Assembly: GCA_964652445.1 (NCBI GenBank)
Contig: CAZZCM010000001.1
Span: 1 to 28,659 of the forward strand
Length of the DNA: 28,659 nt
Origin: an uncultured Muribaculaceae bacterium
GTDB taxonomy: Bacteria; Bacillota_I; Bacilli_A; RF39; UBA660
Direction: 5' to 3'
In this document: positions 15,615-25,115 of the stretch, in pieces
How the letters are laid out: each line of letters starts with the position of its first letter
Numbering within the stretch: position 1 is the first letter of the stretch
Position numbers and translations under genes: made by a program
The notes under the pieces: model-generated
What the model was told of the DNA's origin: nothing
What the model saw: the letters and a program-made list of their open reading frames with translations, nothing else
The model's database searches: none

Positions 15615-18011
15615 TTATTTAACAACAATATTTACTAATTTTCTTGGAATAACAACAACATTGACAATCTTTTTATTATTTACAAATTTCTTTACATTGT
15701 CGTTATCCATTGCGGTCATTTCCATTTCTTCTTTAGATGCATCTACTTTCATAACTGCTTTACCACGAACTTTACCGTTTACTTGAATTACCATTTCAAA
15801 AGTTGAATTAACCGTCTTACTTTCATCGTATTTAGGCCAATCGCTTTCACATAAAGGTTTACCTAAAGCACTTATCTCGTTAATTTCTTCGGTAATATGA
15901 GGCGCAATCGGGTTTAACAAATGAACAAGAACTCTTACATCATCTTTAGTAATACTATCGTATTTTTCATAATCATTAAGTAAAATCATAAGTGATGAAA
16001 CGGCTGTATTGTACTTCATATTTTCTAAATCATGAGATACTTTTTTAATCGTTTGATGAACTAAAGTCTCATTAGTATAGCCAGTCTTATCATTAAGTTT
16101 TTCTTGAATACGCCAAATTCTATCTAGAAATTTACTGCAGCCCTTAAGACCATTAGTACTCCAAGCTGCATCTTTCTCATAATCGCCAATAAACATCTCA
16201 TAAGTACGAAGAGCATCTGCCCCAAATTCATTAACAATGTCGTCAGGATTAATTACATTACCCTTAGATTTACTCATTTTTTCACCATTTGGGCCCAAAA
16301 TCATTCCATGGGATACACGAACATCAATTGGCTCTTTATTAGGAACTAAACCAATATTGTATAAAAATTGATTCCAAAATCTCGCATAAAGTAAATGACG
16401 AGCTGTATGTTCCATACCACCATTGTACCAATCAACTTTGCCCCAATAATTTAAAGCGTTATTCGATACAAATTCTTTATCGTTCTTCGGGTCCATATAT
16501 CTTAAGAAATACCAGCTAGAACCTGCCCAGTTAGGCATGGTATCAGTTTCTCTTTTTGCATGACCCCCGCACTTTGGACAAGTGGTATTTACCCACTCTT
16601 CAATGCCAGCAAGTGGACTCTCACCATCTTCTGTAGGTTCATAATTAGCCACATCAGGAAGTAATACTGGTAAATCTTCATCAGGAATAGGTACCCATCC
16701 ACATTTTTCACAATGAACTAGTGGGATTGGTTCACCCCAAAATCTTTGTCTAGAAAAGATCCAATCTTGAAGACGATAATTGGTTTTAGATTTTCCCAGA
16801 CCTTCTTCCTCCAAATATTCAAGCATTTTAGAGCATGCTTCGGCTTTTGAAGTCATTCCATTTAAAATACCTGAATTAATATATTCACCATCACCAGTAT
16901 AAGCTTCTTTATTAATATTGCCACCACTAATAACTGGAATAATATTAATACCAAATTTTTTGGCAAACTCATAATCACGACTGTCATGAGCAGGAACGGC
17001 CATAATTGCTCCAGTACCATAATTCATCATAACATAATCAGATATCCAAATTGGGATTTCTTCACCACTAATAGGATTAATCGCTGTAAGGCCATCTAAT
17101 TTAACACCTGTTTTATCGTAGGCAAGTTCGGTTCTTTCAAATTCAGTTTTAGTTTTTGCAAACTCTTGATACTCTTTCACTTCACTAATGTTTTTAATCT
17201 TATCACTATACTTAACTAGGATTGGATGTTCAGGCGCTACTACCATAAAAGTAACCCCATAAATGGTGTCTGGTCTAGTTGTATAAACTGTTAAAGCATC
17301 TTTAGTATTAGCTAATTTAAACTGAATTTCGGCTCCTTTACTTTTACCAATCCAGTTAATTTGACCTAATTTTACTCTGTCCGCAAACTTGGTATCATCT
17401 AAACCACGAAGTAAATCCTCAGCGTAATCACTCATACGAAGTAACCATTGCTCTTTTTCTTTTTGGACTACTTTTTCTCCGCATCTTTCACAAACACCAC
17501 CAGCAGAATCTTCATTGGAAAGTCCGGTTTTACATTTAGGACACCAATTTATAGCTTTTTTATCTTTATAAGCCATTCCATGTTTATAAAATTGTAAAAA
17601 TTGCCATTGAGTCCATTTATAATATTCGGGATCCGTGGTTGAAAATTCTCTACTCCAGTCAAATGATGCACCTATACTTTCAATTTGATCTTTAAAAGTT
17701 TTAATATTTTCTTTAACTGCTTCTTTGGGATGAATATGATTTTTAATTGCATACTGTTCAGCAGGTGCTCCAAAAGCATCCCATCCCATAGGAAATAGTA
17801 CATTATAACCTTTCATTCTTTTCATACGAGCCACAGAATCCAAGGCTGTATAACTACGAACATGCCCTACATGAAGTCCAGCACCAGATGGATAAGGAAA
17901 CTCTACTAAAATATAATATTTTTCCTTGTCTCCACCATTTACAGCTTTAAAAGTCTCATGTTCTTTCCAATAATTTTGCCATTTCTTTTCTATTTTCTTA
18001 AAATCATACAT
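15615..18011 (-). CDS. leuS: Leucine--tRNA ligase
   Basis: FPYPSGAGLHVGH (HIGH), KMSKSKGN, editing-domain YTTRPDT and GTGAIMAVPAHD. Confidence 0.98.
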   Translation of the reverse strand: MYDFKKIEKKWQNYWKEHETFKAVNGGDKEKYYILVEFPYPSGAGLHVGHVRSYTALDSVARMKRMKGYNVLFPMGWDAFGAPAEQYAIKNHIHPKEAVKENIKTFKDQIESIGASFDWSREFSTTDPEYYKWTQWQFLQFYKHGMAYKDKKAINWCPKCKTGLSNEDSAGGVCERCGEKVVQKEKEQWLLRMSDYAEDLLRGLDDTKFADRVKLGQINWIGKSKGAEIQFKLANTKDALTVYTTRPDTIYGVTFMVVAPEHPILVKYSDKIKNISEVKEYQEFAKTKTEFERTELAYDKTGVKLDGLTAINPISGEEIPIWISDYVMMNYGTGAIMAVPAHDSRDYEFAKKFGINIIPVISGGNINKEAYTGDGEYINSGILNGMTSKAEACSKMLEYLEEEGLGKSKTNYRLQDWIFSRQRFWGEPIPLVHCEKCGWVPIPDEDLPVLLPDVANYEPTEDGESPLAGIEEWVNTTCPKCGGHAKRETDTMPNWAGSSWYFLRYMDPKNDKEFVSNNALNYWGKVDWYNGGMEHTARHLLYARFWNQFLYNIGLVPNKEPIDVRVSHGMILGPNGEKMSKSKGNVINPDDIVNEFGADALRTYEMFIGDYEKDAAWSTNGLKGCSKFLDRIWRIQEKLNDKTGYTNETLVHQTIKKVSHDLENMKYNTAVSSLMILLNDYEKYDSITKDDVRVLVHLLNPIAPHITEEINEISALGKPLCESDWPKYDESKTVNSTFEMVIQVNGKVRGKAVMKVDASKEEMEMTAMDNDNVKKFVNNKKIVNVVVIPRKLVNIVVK

Positions 18012-18012
18012 A

Positions 18013-18357
18013 TTATTTAACCTCTTTCTTTTTATAAACTCTACCTAAAATATAATAACAAATTAAAATCAGTGGAATTAAAATAACAAATCCTACCACT
18101 AATTTAATAATTAGTGAGTCAAAAAACTCTAATAAAGTTACCGTAATGGCAATTATAAACGCATTAACCAAAGATAAACTATTCGCAAATTTTTTATGAT
18201 TCAAATTTTCAATATCTAGTTTATAAGCATTTTTAAAAAACAATAATTGCTTACCTGTTTTAAAAGCCTCCAATCCTTTTTTTCGACTTACAATAACTAA
18301 GTAATAAACTAAATAAACGATTACAAAACAAATTAAAAATAAATAAACAAGTTCCAT
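18013..18357 (-). CDS. Small hypothetical membrane protein (about 3 TM) between the T-box and leuS
   Basis: SD AAAGGAGG; three hydrophobic stretches; TAA-t-ATG junction with leuS. Confidence 0.8.
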   Translation of the reverse strand: MELVYLFLICFVIVYLVYYLVIVSRKKGLEAFKTGKQLLFFKNAYKLDIENLNHKKFANSLSLVNAFIIAITVTLLEFFDSLIIKLVVGFVILIPLILICYYILGRVYKKKEVK

Positions 18358-18653: not shown

Positions 18654-18665
18654 GACATAGTGGTC

Positions 18666-18690
18666 AAAATATAAGACATAAGCCTTATAT
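18666..18690 (-). terminator. Terminator overlapping the GH31 stop
   Basis: ATATAAGGC-TTAT-GTCTTATAT-TTT; short U tract. Confidence 0.55.
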
Positions 18691-21087
18691 TTCGTTAATA
18701 TATTCAAGTAACTTAATAAACATTTTAATAAACTTCTTATCAAGTCCTTTTTTCCCAAGTTTTCTAACTTCAATACGTTTCTTTTGAATTGTTAAATTAC
18801 TAAACAAAATGCCGTCTATTTCTTCTTTCATTTCCGTTGAAATTTGTAAGTCACTAATGATGCCTTCAATTTCACGATTAATTAAATGGACTGCATCAAT
18901 TTCAATGTCTTTCCCCTTACAATTTACAGTAAGTTGTCCAATCGTTTTAACATCATTGACTTCAACAATAAAATCAGGTCCATCAACATAAGTCTTAAAT
19001 GAAACTTTATCACGATTACTATAAACCTCAACATCATCTGTACGTTTAGTGTTTCTAAAAACAATCTTATAGTTTCTCTTTTCGGGAATAATTCCGCTTT
19101 TACCATCTTTCGCTCTAATAATTATACTGTAATTATTGGGCAAATAGTTGTATTCAATCTCTGTAAGCAAATAAAATCCCTTACGATATAAATCACTTTC
19201 GCCATCATCTTCAAATAATGTATAAGTATTACTTTTCCCAGGGAAAATTTGAATTTCCATATTATCTGGTGGTGTCGTATCATTTAAATCACTATTAGTT
19301 CCTAATGGAATAATCGCTCCTGACCTTGCGAATACGGGAAATTCTTCATCTCTAAAGAATGTAATATAATTTTTTCCACCAGGAAATTTCTTGCCCGTAA
19401 CAAAGTCGTACCATGTCCCTTCAGGAATGTAAAAGTTATGAACAACACGATTCATGACATAGTCTTTTCTCGATACTATTGGGCAAACAAGTAATTCTTC
19501 GCCAAAATAATATTCAGTACGATATAAAGCATCATCATAAAATTCTGGATTAGTCGCGTAAATTGGTTTAACTAAGGGCTTACCATATTTATGATACTTA
19601 TAAGCTTCACTATAAATATATGGAATCAGCTTATGACGTAACTGTAAATAATCTTTAACAATTGTATAAGTCTTAATATCCCAACGCCAAGGTTCACGTT
19701 TATAGTACTTACCTTTATCCACACCAAATTTCAAAATCGGTGAAAAAGTACCTAATTGAACAAACCTAATATAAAGTTCTTCATCCTCGACGCCTTTAAA
19801 ATATCCGCCAATATCATGGGACCAAAAACTAACGCCATTATTATAAGCTGAAGCGTTATAAAATGGAACTTTCTTTAAAGTACCCCAACTAACTACTGTC
19901 TTACCAGAGTATAAAACGGGATAACGATGCGCAGCCAAACGAACATCGGGCGCTAAAACCATTGGTCTACGCTTATAATCACGTTGCATGTCATAAAATT
20001 GATAATGTTTAAGCAAGGCATTCTCCGTCAAATTAACCTTATAATCGTAATCAAGCCAAAAGAAATCAATTCCCATTGTATCCAAAGGATGAATAAACAG
20101 TTTCAAATAAACATCAATAAATTTCGGATCATACACATTAAAAGGTATTTTCCCATCCTTATTTGCTTGTAAATATTTTAAGGCCTCTGCATAAAGTTTA
20201 TCATAATTATAAATTCCTTCGGTTGGATTAATATTGAGACCAAGTCTTATACCTTTTGAGTGTAAATAAGTAATCATTGCTGAAGGATTTTTAAATTTAT
20301 CATTATCAAAAGTAAAACCAGATTTCAAATGATATTTACCAGTATATGCCCTTTTATGCCAATCCTTATCAAGTAACAATATGGAAACTGGAATCTGCTT
20401 TCTATCGAAAGTATCAACTAACTCTTTAAGTTCCAAATCATCATAAGCCTCATTACGACTCCACCAATTTCCTAAAGCGTATCTTGGGATTAAAGCGGGA
20501 TAACCAGTAAGCTCATAATAATCTTTTAAAGCGTCTTCATAATCATTGCCATACATAAATAAATAAGTATCAATTACTCCTGGTTCTCTAGAGACTATTG
20601 TACCATCCTCGTTCCAAACAAAGTCAGTACTATCATCAATACTAGCCATACTATCAGCTGAATATAATCCTTTATCACTGGTGATGCCATCTTCTAAACA
20701 AATGGCTGGGATGCCAAAATTCCTAACTTCTGGATGACCATAATACCACACTTTGTCAGTTCCTAAAAGTTCAACTTTAAGATTCATTGTTGGATTAACT
20801 TTACTACCTTCAAATGGTTTTTCTTTAGTATAAGTAAGTTTAAAATATTCTGTTGAAATCTCTACAAAATGGTTATCATTTCTGGTTTTAAAATCTGGGA
20901 CCGCCAAATTTCTGTGTAAAATTAGCCCTGTCGGCTTATCTAAAAAACTGCCATTAGGATTATATTCAAGTCTAATCACTCTTGGTGATAAAACTGTAAA
21001 GCGATAGTTATTACCGCTTATAAGCGCACTATTATTAGGTACTGCACTTTTAAAATCAATTTTAAATTGTTCCCCCAAATTATACAT
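18685..21087 (-). CDS. GH31 (GH31_u1-like, DUF5110) glycosidase homologue with a degenerate active site
   Basis: PRYALGNWWSR, LDKDWH, FFWLDY, HRYP, WSHDIGG, REPW. Acid/base SGD is SGK and RLH is KFG. Start ATG at 21087 (SD AGGGGTG). Confidence 0.85.
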   Translation of the reverse strand: MYNLGEQFKIDFKSAVPNNSALISGNNYRFTVLSPRVIRLEYNPNGSFLDKPTGLILHRNLAVPDFKTRNDNHFVEISTEYFKLTYTKEKPFEGSKVNPTMNLKVELLGTDKVWYYGHPEVRNFGIPAICLEDGITSDKGLYSADSMASIDDSTDFVWNEDGTIVSREPGVIDTYLFMYGNDYEDALKDYYELTGYPALIPRYALGNWWSRNEAYDDLELKELVDTFDRKQIPVSILLLDKDWHKRAYTGKYHLKSGFTFDNDKFKNPSAMITYLHSKGIRLGLNINPTEGIYNYDKLYAEALKYLQANKDGKIPFNVYDPKFIDVYLKLFIHPLDTMGIDFFWLDYDYKVNLTENALLKHYQFYDMQRDYKRRPMVLAPDVRLAAHRYPVLYSGKTVVSWGTLKKVPFYNASAYNNGVSFWSHDIGGYFKGVEDEELYIRFVQLGTFSPILKFGVDKGKYYKREPWRWDIKTYTIVKDYLQLRHKLIPYIYSEAYKYHKYGKPLVKPIYATNPEFYDDALYRTEYYFGEELLVCPIVSRKDYVMNRVVHNFYIPEGTWYDFVTGKKFPGGKNYITFFRDEEFPVFARSGAIIPLGTNSDLNDTTPPDNMEIQIFPGKSNTYTLFEDDGESDLYRKGFYLLTEIEYNYLPNNYSIIIRAKDGKSGIIPEKRNYKIVFRNTKRTDDVEVYSNRDKVSFKTYVDGPDFIVEVNDVKTIGQLTVNCKGKDIEIDAVHLINREIEGIISDLQISTEMKEEIDGILFSNLTIQKKRIEVRKLGKKGLDKKFIKMFIKLLEYINEI

Positions 21088-21107
21088 GGCATTCACCCCT
21101 TATTATT

Positions 21108-22520
21108 CTATATTTCATCAATTTTCATAAAATTGGTATGTTTTACTTTCTTAAATGGATATCCACCGGTTACAATAACTTTATCACCTTTTTCAAGTTC
21201 CAAAGTCTTTTCCGCAATACTCATTGCCTTTGAAGCAATAGTATCAAAATCAAAGTCACCAATTGCGATTGGTAATACACCAAAATATAAATTTAAACTT
21301 CTAGCAACTCTTTCATTAGCTGCTGCCGCAATAATCATACATGGTGGCCTGAGTTTACTCATTCTTTTAGCTGTATATCCTGTATTTGTGGCTATAATAA
21401 TGGCCTTACAATCAAGGGTTATGGCCCCTAGTGCTACACTGCTTGCAATGGTTCCAGCAATATCCTTAGAATTAGTTTTCAAAGCTGAATTAAAATGATA
21501 ATCATAATCGATTGTGTTTTCAGCTGCTCTAACAATTCTTTCGACCTCTTTAACTGCTTCTGCTGGCTTAGTCCCGATTGTGGTCTCGCCAGTTAATAAA
21601 ATTGCATCAACACTTTCGGAAACTGAATTTGCTAAATCGGAAACTTCTGCACGACTTGGAACCACATCATTTGTTAAAAAGCTATCGAGTTCTGCGGTAA
21701 TAATGCTAATTTTCCCTTTTCCATGACATTTACGAATAATTTTACTTTTAATATTGGGTACTTCTTCAAGTGGTAGTTCAACAGCTAAATCACTACGGGC
21801 AAGCAAAATTCCATCAGCAACATCAATAATTCTGTCTAAAGATTTTACTGCTCTTTCATTTTGAATCTTGGCAATAAGTCCAATATGATCATTTTCTAAT
21901 TCAATAAGCATGTCATTTACTTCCATAATATCTTCAGCATCAGATACATTGGATATTTCAATAAAATCAACATCCATTTTATGAGCAAATAAAATATCCT
22001 CACAATCTTGCTTTGTTAAAAACTTACGATTAAGTTTTATTCCTGGTAAATACAGTTTAGAATGGCTAACAACTCGGCCCCCTTTAACTACTTCACAAAC
22101 GGCATAATCAAGGCCTTTTTCTACAACCTCTAATACAACTTTGCCATCCATAAGTTTAATAACTGAACGAAATCGTAAATCATCAATTAATTTCGGATAA
22201 TTTATTGAAAACTGAAACCCATTACAAATAGCTGGATTCATATACATTCTAATACGCTCACCAGTTTCAAAATCGGCGTAACCTCCTTGAAACTCCCCGG
22301 TTCTAATACAAGGTCCTTCTAAGTCAACCATAACCGAAATATTACTTCCCAGTTTTCTATTTATTTCATAGGTTTTTTCGATAACATCTCTACAAAATCC
22401 GTAATCAGAGTAACTCATATTAAGGCGAATTACATCAACGCCATTAGACACTAATTCCTCTAAAACTTCCATTTTATTTGAAGATGGTCCAATGGTTGCA
22501 ATTATCTTTGTCTTGTTCAT
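21108..22520 (-). CDS. pyk: Pyruvate kinase homologue with a degenerate catalytic site and a conserved allosteric C domain
   Basis: TKIIATIGPS, GPCIRT, AKIQN, ARSDL, SRAEVSD, TGET, TNTGYTA; colinear with PK over 470 aa. Confidence 0.85.
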   Translation of the reverse strand: MNKTKIIATIGPSSNKMEVLEELVSNGVDVIRLNMSYSDYGFCRDVIEKTYEINRKLGSNISVMVDLEGPCIRTGEFQGGYADFETGERIRMYMNPAICNGFQFSINYPKLIDDLRFRSVIKLMDGKVVLEVVEKGLDYAVCEVVKGGRVVSHSKLYLPGIKLNRKFLTKQDCEDILFAHKMDVDFIEISNVSDAEDIMEVNDMLIELENDHIGLIAKIQNERAVKSLDRIIDVADGILLARSDLAVELPLEEVPNIKSKIIRKCHGKGKISIITAELDSFLTNDVVPSRAEVSDLANSVSESVDAILLTGETTIGTKPAEAVKEVERIVRAAENTIDYDYHFNSALKTNSKDIAGTIASSVALGAITLDCKAIIIATNTGYTAKRMSKLRPPCMIIAAAANERVARSLNLYFGVLPIAIGDFDFDTIASKAMSIAEKTLELEKGDKVIVTGGYPFKKVKHTNFMKIDEI

Positions 22521-22537
22521 AGTATCACCTATTATCC

Positions 22538-22566
22538 ATTATACCAGTTTTCTCATAAATTTCCAT
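22538..22566 (-). promoter_or_regulatory. Extended -10 promoter of the pyk-like/GH31-like operon
   Basis: ATGGAA-N17-TATAAT with TG at -15/-14, downstream of the greA terminator. Confidence 0.65.
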
Positions 22567-22576
22567 AATAAAAAGG

Positions 22577-22602
22577 AAAAAAATAGACATTATGCCTATT
22601 TT
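22577..22602 (-). terminator. greA terminator overlapping its stop
   Basis: AAAATAGGCA-TAA-TGTCTATTTT-TTT. Confidence 0.75.
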
Positions 22603-23102: not shown

Positions 23103-23131
23103 ATCTTACTACACAATCACTCATTTGTCAA
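23103..23131 (-). promoter_or_regulatory. SigA promoter of greA, partly inside the upstream CDS end
   Basis: TTGACA-N17-TAAGAT. Confidence 0.7.
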
Positions 23132-24307
23132 GCACTTTTTTATCATATAGTTTTTAAAGACTTGTTTATCGGTTTTAATATAAACAATTTGTTTGGGATG
23201 ACGAACAATAGTGATTGGCTGCATATCCTCATCATATATCTCGGCTACAACCATATCAAACTCATCTTTGGGCCCAAAAACCGTTACTGTATCTCCTTTT
23301 TTGAAATAGTTTCTTTGCTGTACTTTCATAAGGCCATTCTCGTAACCGATAACCATTCCTAAAAAATCTTGATTAGTAATTTCCATTCTACCATTATAAT
23401 ATTGAGCTTCTTTACCAAATGAGCCATTAAAAAATTGTGGAACAGAATCTCGATTCGCACATCTTCTTAAGACCTGTTCATATTTTAAATTATATTCGTA
23501 ACTTTCTTTATTGTTCCAATATTTGTCAATAACTTGTCTATAAACTTTTATAATTGTCGCAATATAGTAAGCTGAACGCATACGTCCTTCAACTTTTAAA
23601 CTATCGACACCAAGGTTAATAAGTTGGGGAATATACTTAATTAAAGATAAATCTTTAGTACAGAAAGTAAATGGTTTTTCACCTTTTAAATGATTATCAT
23701 CTTCTATCAAATCAAAGTCCCAACGACATATTTGACTACAGCCACCACGGTTGGAATCTCTCGATGTTAAAAAATTAGATAAAACACAGCGACCACTGTA
23801 AGAAGCACACATTGCTCCATGAACAAATACTTCTAATTCTATATCTACGTTATCTTTAATATCTCTAATATCATTCATATGGCATTCTCTAGCTAAAACG
23901 ATACGATTTACTCCTTCGTTTTTCCAAAACATGGCCGCTTCTTTATTTAAAGTGGAAGCTTGGGTTGATAAATGGATAACCAAATTAGTATTTTCTTTGG
24001 CTAATTTGATAATGGCTGGATCACTAACAATAATTGCATCAACACCGGTTTTATCTAGTTTTTTCAGATAATTAATAATATTATTAAGTTCTTTATTATG
24101 CATGGCTATATTGACTGTGACATATACTTTTTTATTTAAAGAATGGGCAAATTCTACTCCTTTTTTTATTTCAGAAACTGTGAAATTATCTGCATTTGCC
24201 CTTAAATTAAACGTTCCACCTATATAAACTGCATCGGCACCATATAAAAGTGCGATTTTAAGTCTCTCTAAATCTCCAGCTGGAGCAAGTAATTCTGGTT
24301 TAATCAT
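23117..24307 (-). CDS. trhP1: U32 family tRNA wobble-U hydroxylation protein (YrrO-like)
   Basis: PELLAPAG, GADAVYIGG, intact Fe-S motif HGAMCASYSGRC...RGGCSQICRW, LKVEGRM. Confidence 0.8.
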   Translation of the reverse strand: MIKPELLAPAGDLERLKIALLYGADAVYIGGTFNLRANADNFTVSEIKKGVEFAHSLNKKVYVTVNIAMHNKELNNIINYLKKLDKTGVDAIIVSDPAIIKLAKENTNLVIHLSTQASTLNKEAAMFWKNEGVNRIVLARECHMNDIRDIKDNVDIELEVFVHGAMCASYSGRCVLSNFLTSRDSNRGGCSQICRWDFDLIEDDNHLKGEKPFTFCTKDLSLIKYIPQLINLGVDSLKVEGRMRSAYYIATIIKVYRQVIDKYWNNKESYEYNLKYEQVLRRCANRDSVPQFFNGSFGKEAQYYNGRMEITNQDFLGMVIGYENGLMKVQQRNYFKKGDTVTVFGPKDEFDMVVAEIYDEDMQPITIVRHPKQIVYIKTDKQVFKNYMIKKCLTNE

Positions 24308-25115
24308 TCTTCTTCACCCTATACACTGTTTCATTATATAAAAATCCATGATTAAATGGAAAACTATATTTACCTATATGGTTTTTGAAATTATCAAGAA
24401 CCGTTTTAAAATCTTCATCTGAAATTAAAATACTATTAAAAACTAAATAATCTATACTTGAAAAGTCTTCATCTAAAACATTTAAAATATAGTCAGAATA
24501 TACTGTGGTTCCATATTTGCCATCACTAATTGGATAATACTTTCCTTCTTTGTAAATGGCTTTATTTTGGCCATTATCTTTTAGATTAAAATAATCAATA
24601 TAATTGGTAACCAAATGTCTTCTTGACGTAAACATTGGGATATAACCAAAAACATTCATAAATAGTTTAGCTTTTGACTGCTTTTTTATATCTATAATTT
24701 CATCTTTAGTAATTTCTGAAGATAAATATGCATATTTAACTCCTTTGTCAAACCAATAATTAATTGTTCCATAATTGGTAACCATATGCTCCTGCGACCA
24801 AACTAAATCGGTTTTTAATCCCATTTCTGCTCTTAATTTAACTAAACTGACATCATAGTAAATAATACCCTTGATATTTAAAGTGTCTACTTTGATTAAT
24901 ATTTTTTTTAAGCTATCAATTTCACTATTATGAATATTTTTATTAATTGCTAAAAAAATCTCTTTACCTAATTTTTTGAAGTCTTCTATTTCACTTAATG
25001 TAAAAGTACTTTCAAAATTAATACTATAATCCTTAATTGGTAAAATAAAAGCATCTACTAAATTACTAATATCTTTGGCTTGATTATAATCTCTAACAAT
25101 GGCTACAATTTTCAT
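24300..25115 (-). CDS. trhP2: Short U32 family paralogue (YrrN-like)
   Basis: YAYLSSEIT, VFGYIPMFTSRRHLVTNY; 8-nt overlap with the YrrO-like gene as in the yrrN-yrrO pair. Confidence 0.7.
   Translation of the reverse strand: MKIVAIVRDYNQAKDISNLVDAFILPIKDYSINFESTFTLSEIEDFKKLGKEIFLAINKNIHNSEIDSLKKILIKVDTLNIKGIIYYDVSLVKLRAEMGLKTDLVWSQEHMVTNYGTINYWFDKGVKYAYLSSEITKDEIIDIKKQSKAKLFMNVFGYIPMFTSRRHLVTNYIDYFNLKDNGQNKAIYKEGKYYPISDGKYGTTVYSDYILNVLDEDFSSIDYLVFNSILISDEDFKTVLDNFKNHIGKYSFPFNHGFLYNETVYRVKKND

What the first reader, a model, noticed from the sequence alone, without database searches (positions are those of the whole stretch)
18666..22566. Dedicated two-gene operon pairing a catalytically degenerate pyruvate kinase with a catalytically degenerate GH31 glycosidase: candidate pseudoenzyme system
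Seen: the pyk-like gene (21108-22520) and GH31-like gene (18685-21087) are 20 nt apart with a good SD. They have their own extended -10 promoter (22538-22546) after the greA terminator and their own terminator (18666-18690), so they form an insulated bicistronic unit. Both ORFs are full length with no frameshift or stop, yet each has lost several canonical catalytic residues while keeping its fold and non-catalytic domains (PK effector C domain; GH31 C-terminal domains). Established: pyk normally sits with pfkA and GH31 genes with sugar transporters or regulators, and neither partner is here. Inference: the pair is kept for a shared non-canonical function. Options are (a) a sensor complex coupling energy state (AMP or sugar phosphate at the PK C domain) to alpha-glucan binding, (b) a structural oligomer or filament built from PK tetramers and GH31 oligomers, possibly sporulation-related, or (c) new chemistry, since the GH31 keeps only its nucleophile and could act on activated donors. 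I know of no described system like this, but novelty needs a database check.
Basis: partly seen in the sequence, partly recalled or inferred. Interest (0 to 1): 0.92.

Follow-up and report, generated by a model that had tools for sequence, protein, structure and literature searches.

The report
Dead glycosidase paired with pyruvate-kinase paralogue
A small-genome gut bacterium of the RF39 order carries a conserved two-gene unit: a spare copy of pyruvate kinase in front of a glycosidase-like protein that has lost its catalytic machinery; both are kept by selection, so they probably do a job other than their ancestral chemistry.

Summary
The two genes are real, adjacent and intact. Neither the pair nor the substitutions are assembly artefacts.

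**GH31-like protein ("GH31*").** It descends from GH31_u1 alpha-1,3-glucosidases. It has Lys at the acid/base position (D394 of LlGH31_u1). It is a near-core gene of this RF39 family, found in 259 of 299 genomes. The acid/base Asp is missing in 85 of 86 orthologues, and the nucleophile is also lost in about 11. It is still under strong purifying selection (dN/dS about 0.07).

**Pyruvate kinase.** It is not the housekeeping enzyme but a paralogue, "PK-B". PK-B moved in front of GH31* once and has stayed there in 24 of 60 sampled genera. In that clade the constraint on nucleotide- and K+-site residues relaxed.

**This genome.** The canonical PK-A is not found, and a bona fide PPDK is present. 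PK-B carries a Gln at the Mg2+ ligand (E271Q) but keeps K269, D295, R72 and R119.

**Binding.** A complex prediction gave only weak support (0.34 against a best control of 0.00). Its PK face is a helix conserved specifically in PK-B.

**Verdict.** This is a conserved, probably non-canonical module. However, GH31* degeneration predates PK and does not depend on it, and loss of PK activity in this genome is unproven. The scan noted similar pairs in other genomes.

The parts
22538..22565 (-). promoter-like site: -35 TGGAAA, 16-nt spacer, TG-extended -10 TATAAT
   Evidence: 10 of 12 matches, TG present; consensus match only, function not shown
22580..22602 (-). hairpin after the greA stop codon, followed by a U run: likely greA terminator
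   Evidence: 10-bp stem, -10.2 kcal/mol, z -3.75; not found by the G+C-dependent scan
21108..22520 (-). PK-B: pyruvate-kinase paralogue, 470 aa. It carries E271Q, T113L, K114E, E117C, H77Y and S361T. The core residues R72, N74, S76, D112, R119, K269, D295 and E363 are kept, and so is the effector-site loop.
21088..21107 (-). 20-nt spacer with ribosome-binding site AAGGGGTGA
18685..21087 (-). GH31*: GH31_u1-derived protein, 800 aa. The nucleophile D349 is kept (numbering from the upstream GTG at 21096). The acid/base is K399, the R-x-H His is G458, and H290, W258, W346, W350 and Q351 are replaced. It has a family-specific G-K-Y-Y-K-R-E-P-W motif and a helical C-terminus.
18665..18694 (-). 13-bp AT-rich hairpin spanning the GH31* stop codon, with a 3' arm ending in UUUU: possible weak terminator. 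The leuS T-box promoter lies just downstream (18653-18625).

Best explanation
**What it is.** This is a conserved bicistronic module of RF39 gut bacteria. The window's genus holds Firmicutes bacterium CAG:822 and Ca. Coprosoma.

**Gene 2, GH31*.** It is a cytoplasmic descendant of GH31_u1 alpha-1,3-glucosidases. It lost the general acid/base and much of the sugar-binding site at the base of the family. It is nevertheless a near-core gene under strong purifying selection. It most likely works as a non-hydrolytic binding or scaffolding protein, not as a glycosidase.

**Gene 1, PK-B.** It is a paralogue of pyruvate kinase. It was placed directly upstream of GH31* once and has been kept there since. 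After that move, constraint on its nucleotide and K+ sites relaxed. A surface helix (residues 196-212) became conserved, and the effector-site loop stayed invariant.

**This genome.** The housekeeping PK-A is not found, and PPDK is the likely PEP/pyruvate enzyme.

**Inferred mechanism.** PK-B acts as a metabolite-binding accessory subunit, sensing PEP or pyruvate and a phospho-sugar or AMP. It docks through helix 196-212 onto loops at the rim of the dead GH31* active site.

**Shown.** Paralogy, a single origin of adjacency, purifying selection, and erosion of catalytic residues.

**Inferred.** Loss of activity in this particular PK-B, physical binding, and the sensing role.
For: **GH31***
- Its closest solved relative is LlGH31_u1 (7WJ9, E 7e-112). 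D394, whose Ala mutant is inactive, aligns with K399 (PMC9061262).
- An orthologue is present in 259 of 299 family genomes and 109 of 127 genera.
- The acid/base Asp is absent in 85 of 86 orthologues, replaced by K, S, R, Q, E, H and others. The nucleophile is lost in about 11.
- Residues that are 90-100% conserved in canonical GH31_u1 (H290, W258, W346, W350, Q351, H458) are replaced.
- dN/dS is 0.06-0.08, against leuS 0.09 and greA 0.08-0.11.

**PK**
- The family has two PK clades, PK-A at 100 and PK-B at 99 SH-aLRT. All adjacent PKs form one subclade (97-99).
- Many genomes hold both PK-A and PK-B.
- Among adjacent PK-B outside the genus, R119 is kept in 13 of 26, S76 in 12 of 26 and K114 in 8 of 26. 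PK-A keeps all three in 16-17 of 17.
- Two sister lineages (G109, G349) have PK-B degenerate in every motif yet with intact ORFs.
- Unlinked basal PK-B copies keep canonical motifs.
- PPDK is present in this genome (1321 bits vs a cut-off of 843) and in 88 of 100 genera.
- PK is absent from 10 of 60 and 13 of 20 family genomes.

**Co-loss.** G018 and G002 lack both GH31* and PK-B.

**Complex.** ipSAE was 0.38, 0.34 and 0.30 against a best control of 0.00, rated 'weak support'. Three of the 13 PK contact residues are clade-specific conserved sites, against 20 of 457 elsewhere (Fisher p 0.02). Five of the 23 such sites lie in helix 194-212. GH31* positions 432, 434, 456, 458 and 460 differ between the PK-adjacent and non-adjacent clades.
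Against: - Within the genus, PK-B keeps R72, N74, S76, D112, R119, K269, D295 and E363 in 17 of 17 orthologues. It evolves as slowly as PK-A in the same genomes (median dN ratio 1.1) and passes TIGR01064. It may therefore still be a kinase.
- E271Q is confined to a subclade (8 of 17).
- GH31* keeps its function-defining conservation with or without PK. Thirty-six of 60 genera have no adjacent PK, and G032, G231 and G179 lost PK-B but kept GH31*. PK-B is thus at most an accessory.
- The complex score is at the threshold, and the calibration says such passes are more often wrong than right without a good prior.
- On the GH31 side the overlap with clade-specific sites is not significant (1 of 9, p 0.28).
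- No expression data were available.
- The nucleophile Asp is retained in about 87% of GH31* orthologues, which leaves room for residual or altered chemistry.
Confidence: 0.45

Rival explanations
1. Operon hitch-hiking. PK-B is simply a second working pyruvate-kinase isozyme, and the only one left in this genome. It happened to be inserted upstream of GH31* and stays there through operon inertia. The two proteins have no shared function.
For: - The catalytic core is invariant in all 17 genus orthologues.
- The TIGR01064 score is above the cut-off.
- PK-B is as constrained as PK-A within the genus.
- The effector loop is intact.
- GH31* is conserved equally well without PK.
Against: - The Mg ligand is Gln in exactly the subclade that lost PK-A.
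- R119, S76 and K114 are lost in about half of the adjacent PK-B copies.
- G109 and G349 have fully degenerate but intact PK-B copies as the sister group of this genus.
- Adjacency has been retained across at least 25 genera while the flanks change.
- A surface helix is conserved specifically in PK-B.
- PK-B shows 1.6-fold faster change than PK-A on the branch to the window's subclade.
Confidence: 0.3
2. New chemistry. GH31* is still an enzyme that uses its retained nucleophile on donors with a good or anionic leaving group, such as glycosyl phosphates, so that no acid/base is needed. PK-B supplies or consumes a phosphorylated partner.
For: - The nucleophile Asp, the preceding Trp, the Arg of H-R-Y-P and the Asp of H-D-I-G-G are kept in most orthologues.
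- Lys or Arg is the commonest residue at the acid/base position (56 of 86).
- The barrel domain is basic (pI 9.2).
- New invariant Tyr, Lys and Arg residues lie near the pocket (Y464, Y465, K466).
Against: - The residue at the acid/base position is not conserved (K, S, R, Q, E, H, N, T, I).
- The nucleophile is replaced by N, K, E or T in about 11 lineages that keep intact, conserved ORFs.
- Canonical -1 and +1 subsite residues are lost family-wide.
- No sugar transporter, kinase or phosphorylase is linked in any context examined.
Confidence: 0.12
3. Recent decay or assembly artefact: the two genes are pseudogenes in the making.
For: One relative (G208) has stop codons in its adjacent PK-B, and a few GH31* hits carry single stop codons.
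Against: - The ORFs are intact in dozens of genera.
- dN/dS is 0.04-0.17.
- GH31* is near-universal in genomes of 0.6-1.6 Mb.
Confidence: 0.01

Closest known systems
LlGH31_u1, alpha-1,3-glucosidase of Lactococcus lactis (PDB 7WJ9; PMC9061262)
   Same: Closest solved relative (E 7e-112 over residues 15-646). It shares the domain order: N-domain, (beta/alpha)8 barrel, two C-terminal beta domains and an extra helical C-terminus, which in LlGH31_u1 builds the hexamer. The nucleophile Asp, the W-x-D Trp, the Arg of H-R-Y-P and the Asp of H-D-I-G-G are retained.
   Different: Acid/base D394 is Lys, and D394A is inactive in LlGH31_u1. The R-L-H His is Gly. H290, W258, W346, W350 and Q351 (equivalent to Q343, a +1 subsite contact) are replaced. 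There are about 45 new family-invariant residues, many of them Tyr, Lys or Arg. No ABC/PTS/LacI sugar cluster lies around the gene.
Canonical bacterial pyruvate kinase (S. aureus 3T05, G. stearothermophilus 2E28; the family's own PK-A)
   Same: A/B/C domain architecture. K269, D295, R72, N74, S76, D112, R119 and E363 are retained, as is the effector-site loop T-x-x-G-x-T-A. It passes TIGR01064.
   Different: It belongs to a separate paralogue clade, PK-B. It has no C-terminal PEP-utiliser extension. It carries E271Q, T113L, K114E, E117C, H77Y and S361T; A-R-G-D-L-G reads A-R-S-D-L-A; and the A-T-Q/E-M-L segment is rearranged. The Pfam barrel score is 243 bits, against 345-393 for PK-A.
Chitinase-like lectins of GH18 (from my own knowledge, not tested here)
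   Same: A glycoside-hydrolase fold that lost its catalytic acid and is retained by selection as a binding protein. This is the closest known analogue for how GH31* may work.
   Different: A different fold family, eukaryotic and secreted, with a known glycan ligand. Here the sugar subsites are also eroded and the ligand is unknown.
Dead-paralogue regulatory subunits such as HisZ with HisG (from my own knowledge)
   Same: A catalytically eroded paralogue of a housekeeping enzyme, kept next to a partner gene and acting as an accessory or regulatory subunit.
   Different: In this case the partner is itself a dead enzyme of an unrelated family, and no activity for the pair is known.

Membership tests
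Glycoside hydrolase family 31 (fold) | GH31 (beta/alpha)8 barrel plus C-terminal beta domains recognised by family profiles | tested here: met
   PF01055 175 bits, PF21365 59 bits, PF17137 47 bits; 7WJ9 E 7e-112
Glycoside hydrolase family 31 (active enzyme) | catalytic nucleophile Asp in the W-x-D motif | tested here: met
   D349 in F-F-W-L-D aligns with D341 of LlGH31_u1. It is lost in about 11 of 86 orthologues.
Glycoside hydrolase family 31 (active enzyme) | general acid/base Asp (D394 of LlGH31_u1) | tested here: not met
   K399 in the window. The Asp is absent in 85 of 86 family orthologues and present in 60 of 60 canonical representatives.
GH31_u1 alpha-1,3-glucosidase | -1 and +1 subsite residues (His of R-x-H, His of L-N-x-H-P, Trp residues, Gln343) | tested here: not met
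   H458G, H290N, W258K, W346F, W350Y and Q351D relative to residues that are 90-100% conserved in canonical sequences
GH31_u1 alpha-1,3-glucosidase | hexamer built through the C-terminal helical domain | not tested
   A helical C-terminal region (about 690-803) is present and partly invariant (726-750, 773-799). Its oligomeric state was not modelled.
Pyruvate kinase (TIGR01064 equivalog) | profile score above the curated cut-off | tested here: met
   390.7 vs 306.4 bits; the Pfam barrel score is only 243 bits, against 345-393 for PK-A
Pyruvate kinase (active enzyme) | catalytic Lys269, Mg2+ ligands Glu271 and Asp295, Arg72 and Arg119 | tested here: inconclusive
   K, D, R and R are kept, but Glu271 is Gln in the window and in 8 of 17 genus orthologues. 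The effect on activity is not testable in silico.
Pyruvate kinase (active enzyme) | K+ site and neighbours (N74, S76, D112, T113, E117) | tested here: inconclusive
   N, S and D are kept; T113L, K114E and E117C are fixed in the genus. L113 also occurs in K+-independent PKs (own knowledge), but those carry K117, which is not present here.
Pseudoenzyme (operational definition) | catalytic positions vary among orthologues while the ORF stays under purifying selection | tested here: met
   GH31*. Adjacent PK-B clade. For PK-B of this genus alone the test is inconclusive.
Operon / functional module | adjacency conserved across lineages with changing flanks, and co-transcription | tested here: inconclusive
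   Adjacency was found in 18 of 19 genus loci and 24 of 60 genera, with overlap or gaps of 8-20 nt. Co-transcription could not be tested because no run was listed.

The most novel reading that the evidence does not exclude
PK-B and GH31* form a hetero-oligomeric metabolite-sensing assembly that is specific to a subclade of RF39. A pyruvate-kinase paralogue has become a ligand-sensing subunit, using its PEP/pyruvate pocket and its phospho-sugar or AMP effector site. It plugs through helix 196-212 into the remodelled active-site rim of a hexameric dead glycosidase. That glycosidase has a new, still unknown, near-essential role in these reduced genomes.
Probability: 0.3. Interest if true: 0.8.

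Novelty: new variant of a known kind. Interest (0 to 1): 0.62.

Why it matters
RF39 bacteria are abundant, uncultured gut organisms with genomes of 0.6-1.6 Mb, so genes they nearly all keep are probably important to them. One such near-core gene is a glycosidase with no working catalytic pair. In a large subclade it is welded to a diverging pyruvate-kinase paralogue, while the housekeeping PK is dispensable and PPDK is the norm.

Three consequences follow:
- It would be a natural case of two unrelated enzymes recruited together into a non-enzymatic role.
- Automatic annotation as 'pyruvate kinase' and 'alpha-glucosidase' would mislead metabolic reconstructions of these organisms.
- The proposal comes with a defined, testable interface.

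Tried and rejected
- **Expression and co-transcription.** Two searches for public runs listed none.
- **Terminator scan.** The consensus scan found 0 sites; only AT-rich hairpins were seen by folding.
- **Complex prediction.** It could not take both full-length proteins because of the 1000-residue limit. GH31 residues 196-725 plus full PK gave 'weak support' only (0.34 vs 0.00). It was run without alignments and without the native oligomers.
- **Interface enrichment.** Clade-specific sites are not significantly enriched on the GH31 side of the predicted interface (p 0.28).
- **Differential conservation.** Comparing GH31* between PK-adjacent and non-adjacent genera showed only a few sites (432, 434, 456, 458, 606-609) and no new large patch.
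- **Sugar-utilisation context.** None was found around GH31* in any of nine distant contexts.
- **Literature.** A search for GH31 pseudoenzymes returned nothing. A search for inactive or paralogous PKs returned nothing relevant among the 12 of 30 papers listed, judged from titles and abstracts.
- **Sporulation or filament reading.** No evidence was sought or seen beyond context, so it was dropped.
- **Recent decay.** Rejected by dN/dS.


Full report
**What is in the window.**
- On the minus strand lie a 470-aa pyruvate-kinase homologue (21108-22520) and an 800-aa GH31 homologue (18685-21087; an in-frame GTG lies 9 nt upstream). They are 20 nt apart, with AAGGGGTGA before the ATG.
- Database relatives start at the ATG (800 aa).
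- Upstream is greA. It ends in a 10-bp hairpin plus a U run, followed by a TG-extended -10 promoter-like site.
- Downstream, a 13-bp AT-rich hairpin spans the GH31 stop codon. It is followed by the TTGACA/TACAAT promoter of the leuS T-box leader.
- The consensus terminator scan found nothing, so insulation is plausible but not shown.

**The organism.**
- The window is contig 1 of a 945-kb, 94%-complete MAG.
- Its genus includes 'Firmicutes bacterium CAG:822' and Ca. Coprosoma intestinipullorum. This is GTDB genus CAG-822, order RF39 (PMC8035907).
- Relatives come from human, rabbit, ruminant and chicken guts.

**The GH31-like protein.**
- The closest solved structure is LlGH31_u1, a nigerose-specific alpha-1,3-glucosidase (7WJ9, E 7e-112).
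- The paper assigns D341 as nucleophile and D394 as acid/base, and D394A is inactive (PMC9061262).
- In the window protein the nucleophile is kept (D349), D394 is K399, and the His of R-L-H is Gly.
- The change is not local to this genome. An orthologue (50-89% identity) is present in 34 of 36 genus genomes. It is also in 259 of 299 genomes of the family, in 109 of 127 genera, with genome sizes of 0.6-1.6 Mb.
- Across 86 orthologues the acid/base Asp occurs once. Otherwise the position holds K, S, R, Q, E, H, N, T or I. The nucleophile is replaced in about 11.
- Residues that are 90-100% conserved in 60 canonical GH31_u1 representatives are replaced family-wide: H290, W258, W346, W350, Q351, D399 and H458.
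- About 45 new invariant residues appear, including G462, Y464, Y465 and K466, and many Lys, Arg and Tyr in the C-terminal domains.
- In a search of 1.8 billion representatives, the nearest ~20 clusters (40-51% identity) all lack the acid/base. Canonical F-S-G-D / R-L-H sequences begin at about 38% identity.
- dN/dS to the nearest relatives is 0.06-0.08, like leuS and greA.
- I call this protein GH31*. It is a dead, or at least non-canonical, glycosidase that is a near-core gene.

**The pyruvate kinase.**
- It is the only PK hit in this genome. A full-length PPDK sits on contig 60 (TIGR01828 1321 bits vs a cut-off of 843).
- PPDK is found in 88 of 100 genera of the family.
- PK is absent from 10 of 60 GH31*-bearing genomes and from 13 of 20 GH31*-lacking genomes. 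PK is therefore dispensable in this family.
- A tree of 66 PKs resolves two paralogue clades. PK-A (100 SH-aLRT) sits elsewhere in the genomes and has strictly canonical motifs. PK-B (99) contains every GH31-adjacent PK as one subclade (97; 99 in a second tree).
- Unlinked PK-B copies are basal and still have canonical motifs.
- In the genus sample of 46 genomes, 22 have PK-A plus PK-B and 21 (including this one) have only PK-B. One has only PK-A and two have neither.

**Erosion in PK-B.**
- In adjacent PK-B outside the genus, R119 is kept in 13 of 26, S76 in 12 of 26, K114 in 8 of 26 and T113 in 12 of 26. PK-A keeps all four in 16-17 of 17.
- G109 and G349 are the sister group of this genus (97-99). 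Their PK-B is degenerate in every motif yet has an intact ORF, and they also hold a canonical PK-A.
- Within the genus the core is invariant in 17 of 17: R72, N74, S76, D112, R119, K269, D295 and E363. T113L, K114E and E117C are fixed.
- The Mg ligand E271 is Q in 8, E in 7 and D in 2. Gln occurs in the window's subclade, most of which has lost PK-A.
- The effector-site loop is invariant in both paralogues.
- In genomes holding both copies, PK-B changes as slowly as PK-A within subclades (median dN ratio 1.1). It changes 1.6-fold faster on the branch leading to the window's subclade, where GH31* shows no acceleration.

**The link between the two genes.**
- PK lies directly upstream of GH31* in 18 of 19 genus loci and in 24 of 60 sampled genera.
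- All 24 are among the 28 genera whose GH31* is at least 54% identical to the window's. None of the 32 more distant genera has it.
- The pair also occurs in two distant metagenomic lineages, with an 8-nt overlap or a 10-nt gap.
- Flanking genes change while the pair stays together.
- The older and wider synteny is GH31* - T-box - small ORF - leuS.
- GH31* of the PK-adjacent clade differs at a few fixed positions: R456K, H458G, K434, Y432 and D/E460.
- Losses: G018 and G002 lack both GH31* and PK-B. G032, G231 and G179 lost PK-B but kept GH31*.
- GH31* therefore does not need PK-B. Members of the adjacent PK-B subclade were never seen without GH31*; the unlinked basal PK-B copies of g100 and G117 sit in genomes without it.

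**Do the proteins bind?**
- One complex job (GH31* 196-725 plus full PK-B, no alignments) scored 0.38, 0.34 and 0.30 against 0.00 for three controls, rated 'weak support'.
- In the calibration this mark was reached by 51 of 78 solved pairs and 2 of 108 mismatches. Passes at or under 0.60 are more often wrong than right unless the prior is good.
- The predicted PK face is helix 194-212 plus residues 230-234. That helix is variable in PK-A. In PK-B it is conserved: L199, N202, D203, L205, I206, N210 and H212 at 0.84-1.0.
- Three of 13 contact residues are clade-specific sites, against 20 of 457 elsewhere (p 0.02, uncorrected, and the sequences are related).
- The predicted GH31* face (256, 433-436, 460-462, 464) lies in the most conserved stretch, next to the clade-specific 432, 434, 456 and 458. 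The overlap there is not significant (p 0.28).

**Conclusion.**
The pair is an old, selected module built from a dead glycosidase and a diverging PK paralogue.
- However, GH31* became non-canonical before PK-B joined it and independently of it. Whether this genome's PK-B still turns over PEP is open.
- No expression data could be obtained, and no paper on such proteins was found.
- Earlier first-stage notes of this scan saw the same pairing in other genomes.

Noticed in passing
window 18013-18357 (-): A 114-aa ORF with no Pfam or NCBIfam hit sits between the Leu T-box leader and leuS, and its end overlaps the leuS start. An ORF of 114-127 aa holds the same place in most genera of the family and in distant metagenomic relatives, so it is probably a real gene under T-box control.
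   Followed up: partly
window 15615-18011 (-) vs L028-L030, L032 and many of L055-L114: In the same syntenic position, leuS falls into two classes: 62-89% or only 42-53% identical to the window's. This occurs even inside the genus and suggests xenologous replacement of leuS in situ.
   Followed up: no
L054:1369-2298 (G018): G018, the genus member that lacks both PK-B and GH31*, has a 309-aa PK-barrel-only ORF (29 bits to PF00224). It overlaps the start of an adjacent 458-aa ORF that looks to me like an adenylosuccinate synthetase (read by eye from the sequence; no profile search was run).
   Followed up: no
family genomes: PK is not found in 23 of 80 family genomes examined, while PPDK is found in 88 of 100 genera. 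PPDK, not PK, appears to be the standard PEP/pyruvate enzyme of this RF39 family.
   Followed up: partly
G208:C2:35221-36182: The GH31-adjacent PK-B of G208 is interrupted by TAG and TAA stop codons while its PK-A is intact, a case of ongoing loss of PK-B.
   Followed up: no
window 23117-25115 (-): Two tandem U32-family genes (396 and 271 aa) overlap by 8 nt upstream of greA. The first resembles TrhP/UbiU-type U32 proteins but scores below the cut-offs.
   Followed up: no
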